A stretch of 64,000 nucleotides of DNA from Eledone cirrhosa (Eukaryota), in NCBI GenBank assembly GCA_964016885.1, contig OZ024741.1, positions 128,340,001 to 128,404,000 of the forward strand, in the 5' to 3' direction. The notes below the pieces were generated by a model. That model saw only the letters and a list, made by a program, of their open reading frames with translations. It searched no databases and was not told where the DNA came from. Positions 6,469 through 60,550 of the stretch are shown here, in pieces (position 1 is the stretch's first letter; each line of letters starts with the position of its first letter). A program made the position numbers and the translations under genes.

Positions 6469-6920
6469 ATCAAAAGATGGTTAAAAGAGTTCCAAGTATT
6501 TTATTATGCGCATTTCAAAAACAAATATCATCATGAGATGATATCTGCGTTTTCGTCAGATAAAATAGGGATACATGATATGAAGGTTAAAAAACACTTG
6601 TGAATAGTGAAGTTTTAAATCAACATATGAAAAATAATTTAAGATTGATGTGTGATATTGGGAAAAAGTGAGAGGGGGTGGGGAGGGTGAGAAAGAGGAG
6701 GAGATGAGAGTAGAGAATGGTGGGGGAGGAATATAAGAAGGAAGGATGAGAGAGGAGGAGAGATGGGTGATAGAGAGAGAGAGAGAGAGAGATAGCCTTT
6801 ACAACTGAGAAAAATATATATTGTCTCACAGAGAGAAGTTAAAAAGCCGTTGGAAGATAATAGATAATTTAAAATAATTTGAAATTAAAAGTTGATGAAG
6901 AGAAAAAGAGAAAAAGGGGG

Positions 6921-40277: not shown

Positions 40278-40794
40278 AATGGAAAAAATGAAACGAAATT
40301 TCATTTCTCACTCTTAGTACGGCAGTTACTTAAATATAAGTATATACACGTACATACATATGTGTATACAGACGTACAGTAGTATGTATATATACATACA
40401 TGCACACATATATATATGTACGCATGGATTTACCGAACATTTATTATAATGTTCGGTTTGTTTGTAAACAAACAGCCCGAATTACGCCGTACAGTGCTCG
40501 GCAACCATCGTCGCCCTTTTGTTCAACACTGACAAAGGAACAATGTACTAGTTTCAAGCTTATTAGCTATCGTCAGCACCGTATACCTTCCTGCCAGATG
40601 ATTGAACGTCTGATGCATATTAACGGCTGAGCAGTCTAATTTGCATATCGAGTGAGTTAATCGGCCGGGCGCACCGAAAACGATAAATGGAAAAAATGAA
40701 ACGAAATTTCATTTCTCACTCTTAGTACGGCTGTTACTTAAATATAAGTATGTACACGTACATACATATATGTATACATAAGTTATCAAATATA

Positions 40795-40883
<89 letters not shown>

Positions 40884-41268
40884 AATAGAATGAAACGAAA
40901 TTTCATTTCTCACTCTTAGTACGACAGTTACTTAAATGTAAGTATGTATACGTATATACATATATGTATACAGACGTACAGTAGTATGTATATATATACA
41001 TACAAGCACACATATATATATATGCACGTATCGGTTTACCGAACATTTATTATAATGCATCCCGAATTACGCCGTACAGTGTTTAGGCAACCACGTCACC
41101 TTTTTGTTCAACACTGACACAGGAACGATGTACTAGTTTCAAGCTTATTAGCTATCGTCAGCACCCTATACCTTCCTGCCAGATGATTGAACGTCTGAAA
41201 GTATATACTCTCCTTATGCATATTAACGGGTGAGCAGCCTAATTTGCATATCGAGTGAGTTTAGTCAC
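40278..41268. repeat. Tandem direct repeat of a ~407-bp complex unit (about 2.3 copies, interrupted by (TA)n)
   Basis: atgaaacgaaatttcatttctcactcttagtacg recurs near 40288, 40696 and 40890; bodies 40278-40660 and 40881-41262 align. Confidence 0.9.
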
Positions 41269-44100: not shown

Positions 44101-44400
<300 letters not shown>

Positions 44401-44414
44401 TTCATGGGGATGCT

Positions 44415-47400
44415 GTGTATAGAAATGTAGATGGTTCTATTGCCCTTTCATCCTTTTCCTTACCCCTCCACACACCTCCAAACCACTTCAGCCTCACCCT
44501 CTTGTCTGGTCTGACATTTCTACAAATTGACATAACCTCTCCACTTAAAATCTCTTCTATCATCCTCCACATCACCACCATCACAACCACCACCACCATC
44601 ACAACCACCACCACCATCACAACCACCACCACCATCACAACCACCACCTCCATCACAACCACCACCACCATTACAACCACCACCACCATCACAACCACCA
44701 CCACCATCACAACCACCACCACAATCACAACCACCACCACCATCACAACCACCACCACCTTCACAACCACCACCACCTTCACAACCACCACCACCATCAC
44801 AACCACCACCACCTTCACAACCACCACCACCATCACAACCACCACCACCATCACAACCACCACCACCATCACAACCACCACCACCATTACAACCACCACC
44901 ACCATCACAACCACTACCACCATTACAACCACCACCACCACCATCACAAACACCACCACCATCACAACCACTACCACCATCACAACCACCACCACCATCA
45001 CAACCACCACCACCATCACAACCACCACCACCATCACAACCACCACCACCATCACAACCACTACCACCATTACAACCACTACCACCATCACAACCACCAC
45101 CACCATCACAACCACCACCACCATCACAACCACCACCACCATCACAACCACCACCACCATTACAACCACCACCACCATCACAACCACCACCACCATCACA
45201 ACCACCACCACCATCACAACCACCACCACCATCACAACCACCACCTCCATCACAACCACCACCACCATTACAACCACCACCATCATCACAACCACTACCA
45301 CCATCACAACCACCACCACCATCACAACCACCACCACCATCACAACCACCACCACCATCACAACCACCACCTCCATCACAACCACCACCACCATTACAAC
45401 CACCACCACCATCACAACCACCACCACCATCACAACCACCACCACCATCACAACCACCACCTCCATCACAACCACCACCACCATTACAACCACCACCATC
45501 ATCACAACCACTACCACCATCACAACCACCACCACCATCATAACCACCACCACCATCACAACCACCACCATCACAACCACCACCACCATCACAACCACCA
45601 CCACCATCACAACCACCACCACCATCATAACCACCACCACCATCACACCCACCACCACCATAACAACCACCATCACCATCATAACCACCACCACCATCAC
45701 ACCCACCACCACCATAACAACCACCACCTCCATCACAACCACCACCACCATCATAACCATCACCACCATCACAACCACCACCACCATCACAACCACCACC
45801 ACCATCACAACCACCACCACCATCACAACCACTACCACCATCACAACCACCACCATCATCACAACCACTACCACCATCACAACCACCACCACCATCACAA
45901 CCACCACCACCATCACAACCACCACCACCATCACAACCACCACCTCCATCACAACCACCACCACCATTACAACCACCACCACCATCACAACCACCACCAC
46001 CATCACAACCACCACCACCATCACAACCACCACCTCCATCACAACCACCACCACCATTACAACCACCACCATCATCACAACCACTACCACCATCACAACC
46101 ACCACCACCATCATAACCACCACCACCATCACAACCACCACCATCACAACCACCACCACCATCACAACCACCACCACCATCACAACCACCACCACCATCA
46201 TAACCACCACCACCATCACACCCACCACCACCATAACAACCACCATCACCATCATAACCACCACCACCATCACAACCACCACCACCATAACAACCACCAC
46301 CTCCATCACAACCACCACCACCATCATAACCATCACCACCATCACAACCACCACCACCATCACAACCACCACCACCATCACAACCACCACCACCATCACA
46401 ACCACTACCACCATCACAACCACCACCACCATCATAACCACCACCACCATCACAACCACCACCACCATCACAACCACCACCACCATCACAACCACCACCA
46501 CCATCACAACCACCACCACCATCACAACCGCCACCACCATAACAACCACCACCACCATCACAACCACCACCACCATCACAACCACCACCACCATCACAAC
46601 CACCACCACCATCACAACCACTACCACCATCACAACCACCACCACCATCATAACCACCACCACCATCACAACCACCACCACCATCACAACCACCACCATC
46701 ATAACAACCACCACCATCATCACAACCACCACCACCATCACAACCACCACAACCATCACAACCACCACCACCTTCACAACCACCACCACCATAACAACCA
46801 CCATCACCATCACAACCACCACCACCATCACAACCACTACCACCATCACAACCACCACCACCATCATAACCACCACCATCACAACCACCACCACCATCAC
46901 AACCACCACCACCATAACAACCACCACCACCATCACAACCACCACCACCATCATAACCACCACCACCATCACAACCACCACCACCATCACAACTACCACC
47001 ACCATTACAACTACCACCATCATCACAACCACCACCTCCATCACAACCACCACCACCATCATAACCACCATCTCCATCACAACCACCACCACCATCACAA
47101 CCACCACCACCATAACAACCACCACCACCATCACAACCACCACCACCATCACAACCACCACCACCATCACAACCACCACCACCATCACAACCACCACCAC
47201 CATCACAACCACCACCACCATAACAACCACCACCACCATCACAACCACCACCACCATCATAACCACCACCACCATCACAACCACCACCACCATAACAACC
47301 ACCATCACCATCATAACCACCACCACCATCACAACCACCACCACCATAACAACCACCACCATAACAACCACCACCACCATCACAACCACCATCACCATCA

Positions 47401-50066
47401 TAACCACCACCACCATCACAACCACCACCACCTTCACAACCACCACCTCCATCACAACCACCACAACCATCACAACCACCACCACCATCACATCCACAAC
47501 CAGCATCACAACCACCACCACCATAACAACCACCACCTCCATCACAACCACCACCACCATCACAACCACCACCACCATAACAACCACCACCATCACAACC
47601 ACCACCACCATCATAACCACCACCACCATCATAACCACCACCACCATCACAACCACCACCACCATCACAACCACCACCATAACAACCACCACCACCATCA
47701 CAACCACCACCACCATCATAACCACCACCACCATCACAACCACCACCACCATAACAACCACCACCACCATCACAACCACCACCACCATAACAACCACCAT
47801 CACCATCATAACCACCACCACCATCACAACCACCACCACCATAACAACCACCACCATAACAACCACCACCACCATCACAACCACCACCACCATCATAACC
47901 ACCACCACCATCACAACCACCACCACCATAACAACCACCACCACCATCACAACCACCACCACCATCACAACCACCACCACCATAACAACCACCACCATAA
48001 CAACCACCACCACCATAATAACCACCACCATAACAACCACCACCACCATCACAACCACCACCACCATCATAACCACCACCACCATCACAACCACCACCAC
48101 CATAACAACCACCACCACCATAATAACCACCACCATAACAACCACCACCACCATAACAACCACCACCACCATAACAACCACCACCACCATAACAACCACC
48201 ACCATAACAACCACCACCACCATCACAACCACCACCACCATAACAACCACCACCACCATAACCACCACCACCATCACAACCACCACCACCATAACAACCA
48301 CCACCATCACAACCACCACCACCATCACAACCACCACCACCATAACAACCACCACCACCATAACCACCACCACCATCACAACCACCACCACCATAACCAC
48401 CACCACCATCACAACCACCACCACCATCACAACCACCACCACCATCACAACCACCACCACCATAACAACCACCACCACCATAACAACCACCACCACCATC
48501 ATAACCACCACCACCATCACAACCACCACCACCATAACAACCACCACCACCATCATAACCACCACCACCATCACAACCACCACCACCATAACAACCACCA
48601 CCATCACAACCACCACCACCATCACAACCACCACCACCATCACAACCACCACCACCATCACAACCACCACCACCATCACAACCACCACCACCATCATAAC
48701 CACCACCACCATCACAACCACCACCACCATAACAACCACCACCATCACAACCACCACCACCATAACAACCACCACCACCATCACAACCACCACCACCATA
48801 ACAACCACCACCATCACAACCACCACCACCATAACAACCACCACCACCATCACAACCACCACCACCATAACAACCACCACCACCATCACAACCACCACCA
48901 CCATAACAACCACCACCACCATCACAACCACCACCACCATAACAACCACCACCACCATCACAACCACCACCACCATAACAACCACCACCATCACAACCGC
49001 CACCACCATAACAACCACCACCATCACAACCACCACCACCATCACAACCACCACCACCATAACAACCACCACCACCATCACAACCACCACCACCATAACA
49101 ACCACCACCATCACAACCACCACCACCATAACAACCACCACCATCACAACCACCACCACCATCACAACCACCACCACCATCACAACCACCACCACCATCA
49201 CAACCACCACCACCATCACAACCACCACCACCATCATAACCACCACCACCATCACAACCACCACCACCATAACAACCACCACCATCACAACCACTACCAC
49301 CATCATAACCACCACCACCATCACAACCACCATCACCATCATAACCACCACCACCATCACAACCACCACCACCATAACAACCACCACCATCACAACCACC
49401 ACCACCATAACAACCACCACCACCATCACAACCACCACCACCATAACAACCACCACCACCATCACAACCACCACCACCATAACAACCACCACCATCACAA
49501 CCGCCACCACCATAACAACCACCACCATCACAACCACCACCACCATAACAACCACCACCACCATCACAACCACCACCACCATAACAACCACCACCACCAT
49601 CACAACCACCACCACCATAACAACCACCACCACCATCACAACCACCACCACCATAACAACCACCACCACCATCACAACCACCACCACCATAACAACCACC
49701 ACCACCATCACAACCACCACCACCATAACAACCACCACCACCATCACAACCACCACCACCATAACAACCACCACCACCATCACAACCACCACCACCATAA
49801 CAACCACCACCACCATCACAACCACCACCACCATAACAACCACCACCATCACAACCGCCACCATCACTATCTTCATTATTATAATCATCATCACCATTAT
49901 CATCCCCATAATAACAACCACCATCACCACCAGCGCCATGAGCTCCATCATCGTCATCGTCATCGCCGCCACCATCTCCATCCTCCCCCTACTCTACCTC
50001 CTCCTCCTCATCATCATCATCACCATCATCACCATCAGCACCATCATCACCATCATCACTATCAAT

Positions 50067-50097
<31 letters not shown>

Positions 50098-53000
50098 CTA
50101 CCGTCAACACCTTACTGTTATCATCATCATTACCGCTACTATCAACACCATCATCATCATCTACATCATCTTTATTGCCTCCACCATCATCAGTACCATC
50201 ACGACTCACCATACCTGATGATATCACACCTGACATCACCACACCTGTTGATATCACATCTGATGATATCACATCTGACGTCTCCATACCTGCTGATACC
50301 ACACCTGTTGATATCACACCTGATGACACCACATCTGTCATTATCACATCTGATGTTACCACACCTGATGATATCACACCTGACATCACCACATCTGTTG
50401 ATATCACATCTGATGATATCACATCTGACGTCGCCACACCTGATGATATCACACCTGTTGATATCACACCTGATGCGATCACATCTGTTATTATCACATC
50501 TGATGACACCACGCCTGATGATATCACATCTGACGTCTCCACACCTGGTGATATCACACCTGATGCCACCACATCTGTCATTATCACATCTGATGTCACC
50601 ACACCTGATGATATCACATCTGACGTCACCACACCTGGTGATATCACACCTGATGCCACCACATCTGTCATTATCACATCTGATGTCACTACACCTGATG
50701 ATATCACATCTGACGTCACCACACTTGGTGATATCACACCTGATACCACCACATCTGTCATTATCACATCTGATGTCACCACAGCTGATGATATCACATC
50801 TAACGTCACCACACCTGGTGATATCACATCTGATGCCACCACATCTGTCATTATCACATCTGATGTCACCACGCCTGATGATATCACATCTGACGTCACC
50901 ACACCTGGTGATATCACACCTGATGCCACCACATCTGTCATTATCACATCTGATGTCACCACACCTGATGATATCACATCTGACGTCACCACACCTGGTG
51001 ATATCACACCTGATGCCACCACATCTGTCATTATCACATCTGATGTCACCACACCTGATGATATCACATCTGACGTCACCACACTTGGTGATATCACACC
51101 TGATGCCACCACATCTGTCATTATCACATCTGATGTCACCACAGCTGATGATATCACATCTGACGTCACCACACCTGGTGATATCACACCTGATGCCACC
51201 ACATCTGTCATTATCACATCTGATGTCACCACACCTGATGATATCACATCTGACGTCACCACACCTGGTGATATCACACCTGATGCCACCACATCTGTCA
51301 TTATCACATCTGATGTCACTACACCTGATGATATCACATCTGACGTCACCACACTTGGTGATATCACACCTGATGCCACCACATCTGTCATTATCACATC
51401 TGATGTCACCACAGCTGATGATATCACATCTGACGTCACCACACCTGGTGATATCACACCTGATGCCACCACATCTGTCATTATCACATCTGATGTCACC
51501 ACACCTGATGATATCACATCTGACGTCACCACACTTGCTGATATCACACCTGATGCCACCACATCTGTCATTATCACATCTGATGTCACCACACCTGATG
51601 ATATCACATCTGACGTCACCACACTTGCTGATATCACACCTGATGCCACCACATCTGTGATTATCATATCTGATGTCACCACGCCTGATGATATCACATC
51701 TGACGTCACCACACCTGGTGATATCACACCTGATGCCACCACATCTGTCATTATCACATCTGATGTCACCACACCTGATGATATCACATCTGACGTCACT
51801 ACACTTGGTGATATCACACCTGATGCCGCCACATCTGTCATTATCACATCTGATGTCACGACACCTGATGATATCACATCTGACGTCACCACACCTGGTG
51901 ATATCACACCTGATGCCACCACATATGTCATTATCACATCTGATGTCACCACACCTGATGATATCACATCTGACGTCACTACACTTGGTGATATCACACC
52001 TGATGCCGCCACATCTGTCATTATCACATCTGATGTCACGACACCTGATGATATCACATCTGACGTCACCACACCTGGTGATATCACACGTGATGCCACC
52101 ACATCTGTCATTATCACATCTGATGTCACCACGCCTGATGATATCACATCTGACGTCACCACACCTGGTGATATCACACCTGATGCCACCACATCTGTCA
52201 TTACCACATATGATGTCACCACACCTGATGATATCACATCTGACGTCACCACACCTGGTGATATCACACCTGATGCCACCACATTTGTCATTATCACATC
52301 TGATGTCACCACACATGATGATATCACATCTGACGTCGCCACACCTGGTGATATCACACCTGATGCCACCACATATGTCATTATCACATCTGATGTCACC
52401 ACACCTGATGATATCACATCTGACGTCACTACACTTGGTGATATCACACCTGATGCCGCCACATTTTTCATTATCACATCTGATGTCACCACACATGATG
52501 ATATCACATCTGACGTCACCACACCTGGTGATATCACACCTGATGCCACCACATATGTCATTATCACATCTGATGTCACCACACCTGATGATATCACATC
52601 TGACGTCACTACACTTGGTGATATCACACCTGATGCCGCCACATCTGTCATTATCACATCTGATGTCACGACACCTGATGATATCACATCTGACGTCACC
52701 ACACCTGGTGATATCACACGTGATGCCACCACATCTGTCATTATCACATCTGATGTCACCACGCCTGATGATATCACATCTGACGTCACCACACCTGGTG
52801 ATATCACACCTGATGCCACCACATCTGTCATTACCACATATGATGTCACCACACCTGATGATATCACATCTGACGTCACCACACCTGGTGATATCACACC
52901 TGATGCCACCACATTTGTCATTATCACATCTGATGTCACCACACATGATGATATCACATCTGACGTCACCACACCTGGTGATATCACACCTGATGCCACC

Positions 53001-53801
53001 ACATCTGTCATTATCACATCTGATGTCACCACACCTGATGATATCACATCTGACGTCACCACACCTGGTGATATCACACCTGATTCCACCACATCTGTCA
53101 TTATCACATCTGATGTCACCACACCTGATGATATCACATCTGACGTCACCACACCTGGTGATATCACACCTGATTCCACCACATCTGTCATTATCACATC
53201 TGATGTCACCACACCTGATGATATCACATCTGACGTCACCTCACCTGGTGATATCACACCTGATGCCACCACATCTGTCATTATCACATCTGATGTCACC
53301 ACACCTGATGATATCACATCTGACGTCACCACACCTGGTGATATCACACCTGATGCCACCACATCTGTCATTATCACATCTGATGTCACCACACCTGATG
53401 ATATCACATCTGACGTCACCACACCTGGTGATATCACACCTGATGCCACCACATCTGTCATTATCACATCTGATGTCACCACACCTGATGATATCACATC
53501 TGACGTCACCACACCTGGTGATATCACACCTGATGCCACCACATCTGTCATTATCACATCTGATGTCACCACACCTGATGATATCACATCTGACGTCACC
53601 ACACCTGGTGATATCACATCTGATGTCACCACACCTGTTGATATCACATCTGATGTCACCACACCTGTTTACATGATGTCAGAATTCCTATTTATATCAC
53701 GAAATATGCCAGCCTTCATGTTTGATACCATATGTTATGTCACTGCTTTTGTCGATATCATACATTGCTTCTCTGCATCCCTCTGCGTCCCTCTGACTTA
53801 G
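44415..53801 (+). CDS. Stop-free 9.4-kb frame, mucin-like Thr/Asp-rich (doubtful as a gene)
   Basis: Frame stays open across two arrays and their junction; GTG start, no recognisable domain. Confidence 0.15.
44570..49862. repeat. 18-bp minisatellite (accaccaccaccatcaca)n, ~5.3 kb
   Basis: Direct reading; 15-, 18- and 21-bp variants. Confidence 0.97.
50205..53668. repeat. 90-bp tandem repeat built from three related 30-bp subunits, ~38 units
   Basis: Unit atatcacatctgacgtcaccacacctggtg-atatcacacctgatgccaccacatctgtca-ttatcacatctgatgtcaccacacctgatg, in register with no indels. Confidence 0.97.
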
Positions 53802-55152: not shown

Positions 55153-55440
55153 GGGGAGGGGGAGTCTGAGGCGTCGTAGGTGGCGGCACTTGCTACGGAG
55201 GTGGGGGCGGGTTGTCTAAGCCGTCATGCTAATCCAGTTGCTACGCTTGGTAAGCTTTTGACATCAATACCGGATACGTCTTACAATATTGTTGGCATGT
55301 TGGTGTTGCTGTTGTTGTTGTGGTAGTGGTGGTGCGTGTTGTTATTTGTCATTTTATTTCAAATAAGGAAAGAAAAACGTCACGACTAGCAACCATTTAA
55401 ACAAACCAGAATCATACATATATTAATATTATATATCTCA

Positions 55441-55542
55441 CCGAGGTTAACTTTGCCTTTCATCCTTACGGGGTCGATAAAATAAAGTACCAGTAATACA
55501 CTGAGTTAATTGGTGGCCTTGTGCCAAAAGTAGAAACAATTA
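55441..55542 (+). mobile_element. SINE S1, 3' half
   Basis: ccgaggttaactttgcctttcatccttacggggtcgataaaataaagtaccag...gtgccaaaagtagaaacaatt. Confidence 0.88.
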
Positions 55543-55581
55543 TATATATATAGTTATGTAATAAACAACATATGGTAATTA

Positions 55582-55642
55582 TTTCATTTACCACTGGTTT
55601 CTTGAAAGCAAACAAATTTTGCTTTCAATCATCAGAATGAAA
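55582..55642 (-). ncRNA. Type I hammerhead ribozyme, apparently intact (family E)
   Basis: Minus strand: tttcatt-CTGATGA-ttgaaagcaaa(atttg)tttgctttcaa-GAAA-cc(agt)gg-TA-aatgaaa; 7-bp stem I, 11-bp stem II, GUA cleavage triplet. Confidence 0.88.
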
Positions 55643-55669
55643 AAATCCTGGTGTATTTATTGACATTGG

Positions 55670-55743
<74 letters not shown>

Positions 55744-55784: not shown

Positions 55785-56627
<843 letters not shown>

Positions 56628-56653
56628 ATGTAATAAACAACATAAGGCAATTA

Positions 56654-56713
56654 TTCCATTTACCAGTGGTTTCTTAAAAGCAAAAGGTTTTGCTTTCAAT
56701 CCTCAGAACGAAA
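56654..56713 (-). ncRNA. Type I hammerhead ribozyme (family E, left arm)
   Basis: Reverse complement of 56738-56797. Confidence 0.82.
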
Positions 56714-56737
56714 AAATCCTGGTTTGTTTCCTGGTTT

Positions 56738-56797
56738 TTTCGTTCTGAGGATTGAAAGCAAAACCTTTTGCTTTTAAGAAACCACTGGTAAATGGAA
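56738..56797 (+). ncRNA. Type I hammerhead ribozyme (family E, right arm)
   Basis: tttcgtt-CTGAGGA-ttgaaagcaaaa(cc)ttttgcttttaa-GAAA-cc(act)gg-TA-aatggaa. Confidence 0.82.
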
Positions 56798-56893
56798 TAA
56801 TTGCCTTATGTTGTTTATTACATAATAATAATTAAGCTCTGTTGCTTACATAGAGCACTCTTTTTTCCTGGACTTTTCCGACGGAATCACTTC

Positions 56894-56938
<45 letters not shown>

Positions 56939-56940
<2 letters not shown>

Positions 56941-57494
56941 AGAAAATAGAATAGCTTTCACCGTATTTTTGACTAAAGGAATTTTAGCCTGATAATGGGG
57001 TTTAGAACCCTCAGATAAATGGAAAAAATGAGTATTGACGTACATGGGAGTCGAACCCACATCTTTGGTTATCGCGACCACCATTACACCAACACATCAC
57101 CCATCTCTTTCCATTCAAATTAGAAGCTACATTCTTAGCGAGTTTAAATGGCAAGTAAGTATGTTTTGAAACAGTGAGCAGGTTTGAAATTAGAAAATAG
57201 AATAGCTTTCACCGTATTTTTGACTAAAGGAATTTTAGCCTGATAATGGGGTTTAGAACCCTCAGATAAATGGAAAAAGAGATGGGTGATGTGTTGGTGT
57301 AATGGTAGCACAGTGGTCGCGATAACCAAAGATGTGGGTTCGACTCCCATGTACGTCAATACTCATCTTTTCCCATTTATCTGAGGGTTCTAAACCCCAT
57401 TATCAGGCTAAAATTCCTTTAGTCAAAAATACGGTGAAAGCTATTCTATTTTCTAATTTCAAACCTACTCACTGTTTCTAAACATACTTACTTG
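56939..57494. mobile_element. Fold-back element with central tRNA-like sequence, plus an inverted partial duplicate
   Basis: Inverted repeat 57152-57494; 56939-57115 is the reverse complement of its right half. Confidence 0.8.
57288..57358 (+). pseudogene. tRNA-like cloverleaf (pseudo-tRNA or SINE head); deleted copy on the minus strand at 57036-57098
   Basis: gatgtgt/gtacgtc acceptor stem (three G-U), A box TGGTGTAATGG, tggt/acca stem with a non-canonical loop, T arm gtggg-TTCGACT-cccat. Confidence 0.65.
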
Positions 57495-57500
57495 ACTTAT

Positions 57501-58373
57501 ATATTTATTAAAATAACAGATTAAAGTTTAAGCAAAGAAACGCTGCTTTCACCCTTAGCGGGATCTTCTGAAACTAAAAATATCAATCTGTGAACGCAGA
57601 AGTAAATATTTGAAAAACGTTGCAACCGAAGGAAGACAGGAAGACGATATTTTGGCTCGTGGAGCCGTTCCCTTCACAAAACATACAGGTAATATATACT
57701 TACCTATACAAATAAGTAATGGTATAAACATAACATATACTTAGCTACCACATCAAGACGTAAAATATCAGCGTATAGTTCGTACTATCCGTTAGTGTAT
57801 AATGTGGGGCTGTAATACAGGAAAGTTTTGTGCAATTTATGTTTACAAGCCGAAATTGCCTCAGATTTTTTGTTTAAGATGTGGTCTTTGGCGTAGAGTA
57901 TATCCTCAGCGGCGCAGAGGTCCCATGGTCTTTTATTTCCGTTATACGATCTAGCCCTAGCTAGGATCTCCCAGTGTAACTTATATCGGGTGTGGTTGTC
58001 TTTTAGACTCCAGATATTTCGGCTTGTAAACATAAATTGCACAAAACTTTCCTGTATTACAGCCCCACATTATACCCTAACGGATAGTACGAACTATACG
58101 CGGATATTTTACATCTTGATGTGGTAACTAAGTATATGTTATGTTTATACCATTACTTATTTGTATAGGTAAGTATATATTACATGTATGTTTTGTGAAG
58201 GGAACGTCTCCACGAGCCAAAGTATCGTCTTCCTGTCTTCCTTCGGTTGCAACGTTTTTCGAAATATTTACTTCTGCGTTCACAGATTGGTTTTTTTTAG
58301 TTTCAGAAGATCCCGTTAAGGGTGAAAGCAGCGTTTCTTTACTTAAACTTTAATCTGTTATTTTAATAAATAT
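57501..58373. mobile_element. 5'-truncated Penelope-like retroelement with inverted terminal repeats
   Basis: Arms 57501-57856 / 58016-58373 enclose a GIY-YIG C-terminal fragment; hammerhead-like cagaaga-tccc(gttaa)gggt-gaaa and AATAAA near each arm end. Confidence 0.85.
57785..58016 (-). pseudogene. PLE GIY-YIG endonuclease C-terminal remnant
   Basis: IWSLKDNHTRYKLHWEILARARSYNGNKRPWDLCAAEDILYAKDHILNKKSEAISACKH matches the PLE pattern IW.LK...Y...W.I...A..Y....K.C.LC..E......LNK.SE..S.C.H. Confidence 0.82.
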
Positions 58374-58482: not shown

Positions 58483-58740
58483 AGGGAGTGTAACTTGGAG
58501 TTACTGTAGGTTCACCCGGGTGAGCACTCGGTGTTTAGGTTCACTTCAGTGTCGAGGTGTAGAGCTAGACAGAGTGTATTATAGTAAAATAAGATAACAA
58601 GGACGATTGGTTACTCCTTCATTACGTTTATTGGTTGGTGACGCGCGTTTCGCCACTGATCAGCTCAAGGTTCGGTCTGTATCGATCTGACCCGACTCTG
58701 TAATCCGCGGCTCGTCAGACCCCTTGTAATGTGAATGGAA
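58483..58740 (-). mobile_element. Family F terminal-repeat copy
   Basis: Diverged reverse complement of 56225-56478. Confidence 0.75.
58637..58721 (-). ncRNA. Type I hammerhead ribozyme with a long stem II insertion (family F)
   Basis: Minus strand: ggt-CTGACGA-gccgc(~50 nt)gtggc-GAAA-cgcgcg-TC-acc, then AATAAA. Confidence 0.78.
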
Positions 58741-60357: not shown

Positions 60358-60550
60358 GGGTGGTGGATTGGCAGTATCGGTAGAGGGTCGGACGCCATGC
60401 TTTGACGTATAGAGTTACTGCCCTTGCCATTCTGAGATCAAATCCCGCCGAGGTTAACTTTGCATTTCATCCTTACGGGGTCGATAAAATAAAGTACCAG
60501 TAATGCACTGGGTAATTTCTGGCGTTGTGCCAAACGTAGAAACAATTATT
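60358..60550 (+). mobile_element. tRNA-derived SINE (family S1), full length
   Basis: Colinear with the copies at 37425 and 39015. Confidence 0.88.

What the first reader, a model, noticed from the sequence alone, without database searches (positions are those of the whole stretch)
55582..55642. Textbook-quality type I hammerhead with structure-preserving variation between copies
Seen: perfect 7-bp stem I, CUGAUGA, perfect 11-bp stem II, GAAA, short stem III and a GUA site. In the copies at 56654-56797 the differences fall at the variable core position 7 (U to G), in loops, or create G-U wobbles. The stem II closing pair is U-A instead of the usual G-C. Inference: best candidate in the window for an active ribozyme.
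Basis: partly seen in the sequence, partly recalled or inferred. Interest (0 to 1): 0.72.

Follow-up and report, generated by a model that had tools for sequence, protein, structure and literature searches.

The report
Hammerhead in Hydra-type retrotransposon stump
This is a real hammerhead-ribozyme-shaped motif, but it is one of thousands of copies left by a known kind of jumping gene in a likely octopus genome; the source elements likely keep it functional, while this copy is predicted to fold worse than its closest relatives and cutting is untested, so the finding is ordinary.

Summary
The motif is there as described and is not chance (0 of 200 simulated windows). It is the pseudo-LTR hammerhead of a Hydra-clade Penelope-like retrotransposon. 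Its 3' half has 6,741 exact genome matches. It lies downstream of an RT/GIY-YIG frame with the Hydra motifs in 12 of 20 loci. The window copy is a ~125-bp 5'-truncated stump in (TA)n; the two "copies" at 56654-56797 are one fold-back insertion. Older subfamilies show compensatory changes in 6 of 11 stem II pairs, so source elements likely keep the fold. Corrections: the "U-A closing pair" is usually unpaired in other subfamilies; stem III is a palindrome typical of dimer-acting forms; inserted copies lose core bases at flank rate (2.05% v 2.0%); two rare changes lower this copy's predicted stem I pairing from 0.74 to 0.02. No pile-up of 5' ends at the cut site (0 of 29; 16 v 19 and 15). Cleavage and expression are untested. 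The scan noted similar stumps before on other DNA. New member of a known kind.

The parts
55550..55674 (-). 5'-truncated insertion of a Hydra-clade Penelope-like element (pseudo-LTR end only), between (TA)n tracts; the 3' end at 55550-55552 is ambiguous by TA microhomology
   Evidence: 123 of 125 positions identical to natural copy L003
55582..55642 (-). Type I hammerhead motif
55636..55642 (-). Stem I, 5' strand (pairs with 55582-55588)
55629..55635 (-). Core CUGAUGA (C3-A9)
55602..55628 (-). Stem-loop II, 11 bp here; first position (55628 with 55602) is U-A here but C.A, A.A, C.U or A.C in other subfamilies
55598..55601 (-). Core GAAA (G12-A15.1)
55590..55598 (-). Stem III palindrome with one central unpaired base; centre (55594) is G here, C in 46 of 49 sampled copies
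55588..55589 (-). Predicted scissile bond after GUA (untested)
   Evidence: sequence; hammerhead numbering from PMC4209133 Fig. 1 legend and recall
55573..55573 (-). Rare U-to-A difference 3' of stem I (U in 49 of 49 sampled copies); part of a predicted competing hairpin over the cut site
56621..56897 (.). One fold-back insertion of a sister subfamily (U7 = G): minus-strand arm ending at the short 3' site, plus-strand arm carrying the extra ~68-nt tail; hammerheads at 56654-56713 (-) and 56738-56797 (+)

Best explanation
The motif is the hammerhead in the terminal repeat (pseudo-LTR) of a high-copy Hydra-clade Penelope-like retrotransposon, and this copy is a short, protein-less stump inserted in a TA tract; in source elements the RNA likely folds as a slow hammerhead that would need a second copy or the element's protein to cut. 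Shown: copy number, linkage to the RT/GIY-YIG frame, Hydra motifs, (TA)n flanks, two fixed 3' ends about 37-39 and about 107 nt past the cut site, inverted 5' arms, compensatory changes in stem II, flank-rate loss of core bases after insertion. Inferred: the element's protein nicks (TA)n and starts reverse transcription at one of two internal sites 3' of the hammerhead on uncut RNA; early termination gives stumps like this one; the palindromic stem III pairs between two hammerheads, as in tandem transcripts; selection acts on source elements only. Untested: cleavage, transcription of this copy.
For: 6,741 exact matches to 27 nt of the 3' half, 0 for the reversed control. Same-strand hammerhead 0.3-2.6 kb downstream of the family endonuclease in 12 of 20 loci fetched around endonuclease hits; hammerhead and tail run on into the frame start in L060. 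RWK, DKT, YRDD, CxCX5C, CxxC and CxH present, CX2-5CxxC absent, as defined for Hydra (PMC8557442 section 11). 63 of 98 sampled copies end in TA repeats at the short site, 34 carry the tail, 1 other; the same two ends appear as loose ends in runs X1-X3, one sample, possibly the assembly's source. 6 of 11 stem II pairs change on both sides across 16 chosen variants; score 0.193 v at most 0.084 for slid controls. Shared variants hit 0 of 11 core sites v 13 of 49 flank and loop sites (p = 0.10). The palindrome forms a predicted duplex (-10.8 kcal/mol here, -8.2 for the family form) but no hairpin alone. Templates look uncut: 18 of 29 frame-bearing copies extend 5' through the whole hammerhead, 0 of 29 start at the cut.
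Against: No cleavage data. The core-versus-flank test on shared variants is not significant, and the 16 variants for covariation were chosen by requiring a near-intact core, so they say nothing on core conservation; some are decayed copies. With up to about 125 nt of context the family majority is predicted to form monomeric stem III part of the time (0.42), so strict dependence on a dimer is not shown. No intact frame was seen: the longest open stretch among the 150 best endonuclease hits is 507 aa of an estimated 700, so present activity of the family is unproven. Folding probabilities ignore tertiary contacts, magnesium and protein.
Confidence: 0.8

Rival explanations
1. This copy is an efficient stand-alone (monomeric) ribozyme that is transcribed and cuts a host or element RNA at 55589/55588.
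For: Core intact; stems I and II fully paired; isolated 61-mer folds at z = -3.3; the copy is young (2 differences in 125 nt from L003).
Against: Stem III pair probability about 0.03 in the 61-mer and 0.001 in its own 125-nt context, with stem I at 0.018 v 0.74 for near-identical copies. No G-C pair next to the core (its importance for fast minimal hammerheads is recalled; PMC4209133 calls it highly conserved). It sits in a dispersed stump whose relatives decay at flank rate. 14 of 38 sampled copies fold stem I as badly or worse, so poor folding is common, not unique.
Confidence: 0.07
2. The motif is kept mainly as a folded RNA signal for the element's protein (template recognition and start of reverse transcription); cutting is incidental or lost in this family.
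For: The short 3' end lies just past a predicted long extension of stem I. No excess of 5' junctions at the cut site: 16 v 19 and 15 at two control sites with similar TA microhomology, 4 at a control with less. In the anole element, core mutants did not affect insertion in vitro (PMC11167929, parts 1-2 read).
Against: The only shared change within the core stretch is at position 7, the one position that catalysis leaves free, which a purely structural signal would not require. The anole hammerhead did cut once protein was added (PMC11167929).
Confidence: 0.1
3. It is a non-LTR retrozyme: a short non-coding tandem repeat that makes circular RNA.
For: Short, non-coding, type I hammerhead, many copies; retrozymes are proposed to derive from pseudo-LTRs (bioRxiv 10.64898/2026.07.22.740005, part 1 of 5 read).
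Against: Among the first 100 listed matches, the 16 neighbour pairs within 1 kb are all on opposite strands (15 divergent, 1 convergent); same-strand neighbours lie 3.4-4.6 kb apart, the size of a full element (read by hand). Upstream sequence leads into the RT/endonuclease frame.
Confidence: 0.03

Closest known systems
Hydra clade of C-terminal-endonuclease Penelope-like elements, nearest listed member Hydra-1_Obim of Octopus bimaculoides (Craig et al. 2021, PMC8557442: passages, section 11, supplement parts 1-2 of 59 and a search in it)
   Same: [quoted passage not shown] By eye the frame shares long stretches with Hydra-1_Obim, and its stem III is the same 4-1-4 palindrome apart from the centre base. 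By my count 18 of the 25 Hydra elements in File S2 lack a G-C pair next to the core (14 U.U, 1 U.C, 2 G.U, 1 extra G then A-U).
   Different: Different family: other stem I and II sequences, stem II of 10-11 bp (3-7 bp in File S2), cut triplet GUA rather than GUU, and a microsatellite-rich 3' region that makes the unit about 3.4-4.6 kb, against under 3 kb given for most Hydra elements. Percent identity to Hydra-1_Obim was not computed.
Minimal type I hammerheads of metazoan Penelope-like elements (Cervera and De la Pena 2014, PMC4209133, parts 1-2 of 4 read)
   Same: In the pseudo-LTR, long helix II, palindromic helix III, mostly dispersed single or opposite-strand copies from truncated elements, low predicted monomer activity.
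   Different: Their consensus has a conserved G10.1-C11.1 pair after one extra nucleotide; here the position next to the core is a variable, mostly unpaired N.N, the first G-C pair is third, and stem III is longer (9-nt palindrome).
Poseidon element of Anolis carolinensis (Frangieh et al. 2024, PMC11167929, parts 1-2 of 4 read)
   Same: Two fixed 3' ends downstream of the hammerhead defining a tail; AT-rich target; no sign of ends at the cut site; uncut RNA as apparent template.
   Different: Different clade; tail about 68 nt here; the hammerhead lies about 220 nt upstream of the start codon instead of overlapping it; nothing is tested biochemically here.

Membership tests
Type I hammerhead ribozyme | Core CUGANGA, GAAA and NUH in order, open at stem I | tested here: met
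Type I hammerhead ribozyme | Helices I and II supported by covariation | tested here: met
   stem II 6 of 11 pairs with two-sided change; stem I 1 two-sided and 3 one-sided of 7; chosen variants, related by descent
Type I hammerhead ribozyme | Stable monomeric helix III | tested here: inconclusive
   Predicted only: 0.03 in the 61-mer, 0.001 in this copy's context, 0.42 in the family majority; palindrome allows a dimer helix
Type I hammerhead ribozyme | G10.1-C11.1 pair closing stem II (usual, not universal) | tested here: not met
   U-A here; U 38, C 7, A 4 opposite an invariant A in 49 copies; commonly absent in Hydra hammerheads
Type I hammerhead ribozyme | Site-specific self-cleavage after NUH | not testable with these tools
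   No assay possible; genomic proxy shows no pile-up at the cut site
Hydra-clade Penelope-like element | Single frame, RT then C-terminal GIY-YIG endonuclease | tested here: met
   Pfam RVT_1 only weak, E 0.009, below its cut-off; Atlas neighbours carry RVT_1, HTH_animal, GIY-YIG on part of their members. Seen in overlapping broken copies, not one intact frame
Hydra-clade Penelope-like element | RWK motif and DKT in place of DKG | tested here: met
   (L063 RWK and DKT; L069 has GWK and DKT)
Hydra-clade Penelope-like element | Linker CxCX5C instead of CX2-5CxxC; CCHH absent; CxxC and CxH around the conserved E and N | tested here: met
   three of three frames that cover the endonuclease; no cysteine between VVY and YVG
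Hydra-clade Penelope-like element | Insertion into (TA)n; pseudo-LTR, tail, inverted 5' copies | tested here: met
Hydra-clade Penelope-like element | Phylogenetic placement inside the Hydra clade | not tested
   Published sequences were only compared by eye; no tree was built
Non-LTR retrozyme | Short head-to-tail tandem units, each with a hammerhead, no coding frame | tested here: not met
   0 same-strand neighbours within 1 kb among the first 100 of 6,741 listed matches; linked to a coding frame

The most novel reading that the evidence does not exclude
Hydra-clade elements use a hammerhead variant in which the pair next to the catalytic core is a free mismatch on top of a long helix II, which keeps it nearly silent until two copies pair or the element's protein binds; selection keeps the core although the RNAs that get inserted are uncut, so the cut would serve as a brake or a translation switch and not to make the template. 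This family, with thousands of copies and several dated subfamilies, would make that testable.
Probability: 0.25. Interest if true: 0.45.

Novelty: new member of a known kind. Interest (0 to 1): 0.2.

Why it matters
As found, little: hammerheads in Hydra-clade elements, an octopus member included, are published (PMC8557442). The modest value is as test material. What hammerheads do for Penelope-like elements is stated as unclear in PMC8557442, and this family offers natural variants at the position next to the core, plus a genome-scale count showing no excess of insertions that begin at the cut site. My searches found no cleavage assay of a Hydra-clade hammerhead, but the library lacks most subscription papers, among them the 2017 dimer paper.

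Tried and rejected
Rfam: no hammerhead family matched; hits below threshold were hairpin or microsatellite artefacts. RNA evidence: no RNA holder listed; three runs of one sample of unknown kind were laid and used only for the two 3' ends, not for expression. 5' ends at the cut site as a trace of cleavage: 2 of 40 boundaries at 0 and 2 at -2 among sampled copies, 0 of 29 frame-bearing copies, 16 v 19, 15 and 4 genome-wide TA junctions; no clear excess, though a small cleaved fraction is not excluded and the controls differ in microhomology. Selection on inserted copies: rejected, rare changes 11 of 536 core cells v 45 of 2,243 flank and loop cells, p = 1.0; 38 of 49 keep an intact core. For that count 98 copies were sampled by a flank motif on the first 78 Mb of C1 (90 loci or regions; 2 of the 100 listed places not fetched); 40 were dropped as 5'-truncated or too diverged to align, 6 as second arms of a locus, 3 as misaligned old subfamilies. 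Naiad and Neptune assignments: rejected on domain order and missing CCHH and CX2-5CxxC motifs. A script estimate of frame length failed (wrong start matched); about 700 codons comes from coordinates. The 'family' duplex value was off by one base and was redone. Look-up of earlier findings by sequence gave nothing. The 2017 dimer paper was not held. Only 2 of 59 parts of the PMC8557442 supplement plus one search were seen; supplements of the other papers were not opened and those of the preprint are closed, so a closer published relative may have been missed.

Full report
1. Observation. On the minus strand, 55642-55582 has a 7-bp stem I, CUGAUGA, an 11-bp stem II whose first pair is U-A, GAAA, ACC-AGU-GGU and A17; the predicted cut is between 55589 and 55588. 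The window holds three such motifs and shuffled or simulated windows none (0 of 100; 0 of 200). The two other motifs (56654-56713 minus, 56738-56797 plus) are identical arms of one inverted repeat, so they give one comparison. Rfam does not list a hammerhead here.

2. What it belongs to. The genome is 3.0 Gb; an octopod is inferred from the closeness of the element to an Octopus bimaculoides family. The 116-nt query finds 53 matches at 93-100% identity from 40 scored of 1,184 candidates. Exact patterns give 6,741 matches for the 3' half, 5,710 for the 3' flank and 1,538 for the 5' half of this subfamily, with 0 for reversed controls. Copies end 3' at one of two sites followed by TA repeats: 63 of 98 at the short site, 34 with a further tail of about 68 nt, 1 other (same ends, which may be the assembly's own sample). 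Many carry an inverted second arm. Upstream sequence runs through microsatellites into an endonuclease frame. In 12 of 20 loci fetched around endonuclease hits a same-strand hammerhead follows 0.3-2.6 kb downstream, and in L060 hammerhead and tail continue into the next frame start about 220 nt after the cut site. The frame has RWK, DKT, YRDD, CxCX5C, CxxC and CxH and lacks CX2-5CxxC and the cysteines of CCHH. These are the features that define the Hydra clade of Penelope-like elements (PMC8557442, section 11). No intact frame was seen: at most 507 open codons among the 150 best hits, of about 700 estimated from coordinates. The window copy is therefore a stump of about 125 bp (55550-55674), and 56621-56897 a fold-back stump of a sister subfamily.

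3. Is the fold under selection? In 49 independent full copies sampled by a flank motif, rare changes hit the core as often as flanks and loop (11 of 536 v 45 of 2,243 cells, p = 1.0) and 38 of 49 keep an intact core: inserted copies decay without constraint. Changes shared by three or more copies hit 0 of 11 core sites, 5 of 40 stem sites and 13 of 49 flank and loop sites (core v flank p = 0.10), plus position 7 and the position next to the core; this is suggestive only. Older subfamilies with other stem II sequences give two-sided changes in 6 of 11 stem II pairs among 16 chosen variants, above shuffled and slid controls; the variants are related and were chosen with a near-intact core. The first stem II position is paired in only 3 of those 16, and is U, C or A opposite a fixed A in the 49 copies. 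That is usual for the clade: by my count 18 of 25 Hydra hammerheads in File S2 of PMC8557442 lack G-C there.

4. How it most likely works. Stem III is a 9-nt palindrome with a free centre, as in Hydra-1_Obim. It forms no hairpin alone but a predicted duplex with a second copy. Metazoan hammerheads of this type cut weakly and as dimers (PMC4209133; reviewed in PMC6765202, passages), and the anole one only with its protein; there, core mutants did not impair insertion and reverse transcription began at two internal sites that define the tail (PMC11167929). The anatomy here fits: every full-motif insertion was copied from RNA not cut at that hammerhead; 18 of 29 frame-bearing copies extend 5' through the whole upstream hammerhead, 1 starts inside it, 10 downstream and 0 at the cut; TA junctions at the cut site number 16, against 19 and 15 at control sites with similar microhomology and 4 at one with less. 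Inference: protein-primed copying of uncut RNA into (TA)n, with a slow, assisted ribozyme whose role lies elsewhere in the cycle. Cleavage itself is untested.

5. This copy. It differs from its nearest natural relatives at 2 of 125 positions, 55594 and 55573. In its own context the predicted pairing of stem I falls from 0.74 to 0.018 and of stem III from 0.42 to 0.001, through a hairpin over the cut site. A natural copy with only the centre change (L011, which also differs once upstream) keeps stem I (0.97) but loses stem III (0.027). Against over-reading: the median of 38 sampled copies is only 0.08 for stem I and 14 fold as badly or worse, the centre G strengthens the predicted dimer duplex (-10.8 v -8.2 kcal/mol), and these are secondary-structure predictions. 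No RNA run was listed, so expression is open.

6. Novelty and verdict. A new family of a published clade, with a published kind of hammerhead. Earlier notes of this scan describe similar stumps in this and other genomes; they were seen after my own tests and are not counted as evidence. Interest 0.2. The most novel reading left open is that the free mismatch next to the core marks a switch-like Hydra variant whose cut is not used to make the template (probability 0.25, interest 0.45 if true).

Noticed in passing
window 6497-6567, minus strand: Hammerhead motif of another family, 8-bp stem I, long stem II, palindromic stem III, ending at a TA tract; related copies in L020, L028 and L082.
   Followed up: no
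window about 41125-41165 and 40540-40580, minus strand: Two direct copies, about 585 bp apart, of a third hammerhead family with short stem II and a 6-nt palindromic stem III, flanked by TA tracts; partial tandem, possibly retrozyme-like.
   Followed up: partly
window 55786-55908 (-), 56225-56342 (+), 58594-58716 (-): Three 80-84% alike copies of a repeat with a hammerhead-like but non-standard core (seventh base C instead of G, short stem II, palindromic stem III, no clear stem I); two form an inverted pair.
   Followed up: no
L047, about 2270-2930: Three identical type I hammerheads spaced 310 bp apart on one strand: a likely tandem retrozyme-type array of yet another family.
   Followed up: no
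window 44340-53798, plus strand: Stop-free frame of 3,153 codons made of Thr-rich 18-bp and 90-bp repeats, mucin-like; a 26-kb array of 45-bp units at 8331-34603 reads as Thr/Asn-rich but changes frame often. Gene status not checked.
   Followed up: no
window 56939-57501 and 57609-58263: Further fold-back repeats: one with a tRNA-like segment at 57288-57358 (Rfam tRNA 41 bits), one with 248-nt arms 97% complementary.
   Followed up: no
window 55435-55539 and 60442-60518: A dispersed SINE-like repeat end lies directly beside the stump's 3' TA tract; resemblance to octopus SINEs is recalled, not tested.
   Followed up: no
L128, L125, L146: Fold-back junctions fall inside the stem III palindrome or the stem II hairpin, suggesting these self-complementary stretches serve as template-switch points.
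   Followed up: partly
G000 genome-wide; L056, L064, L066, L068: The endonuclease query drew 47,887 first-look candidates, and several other diverged Hydra-like frames lie beside the family's copies, so this clade may be very abundant in this genome.
   Followed up: no
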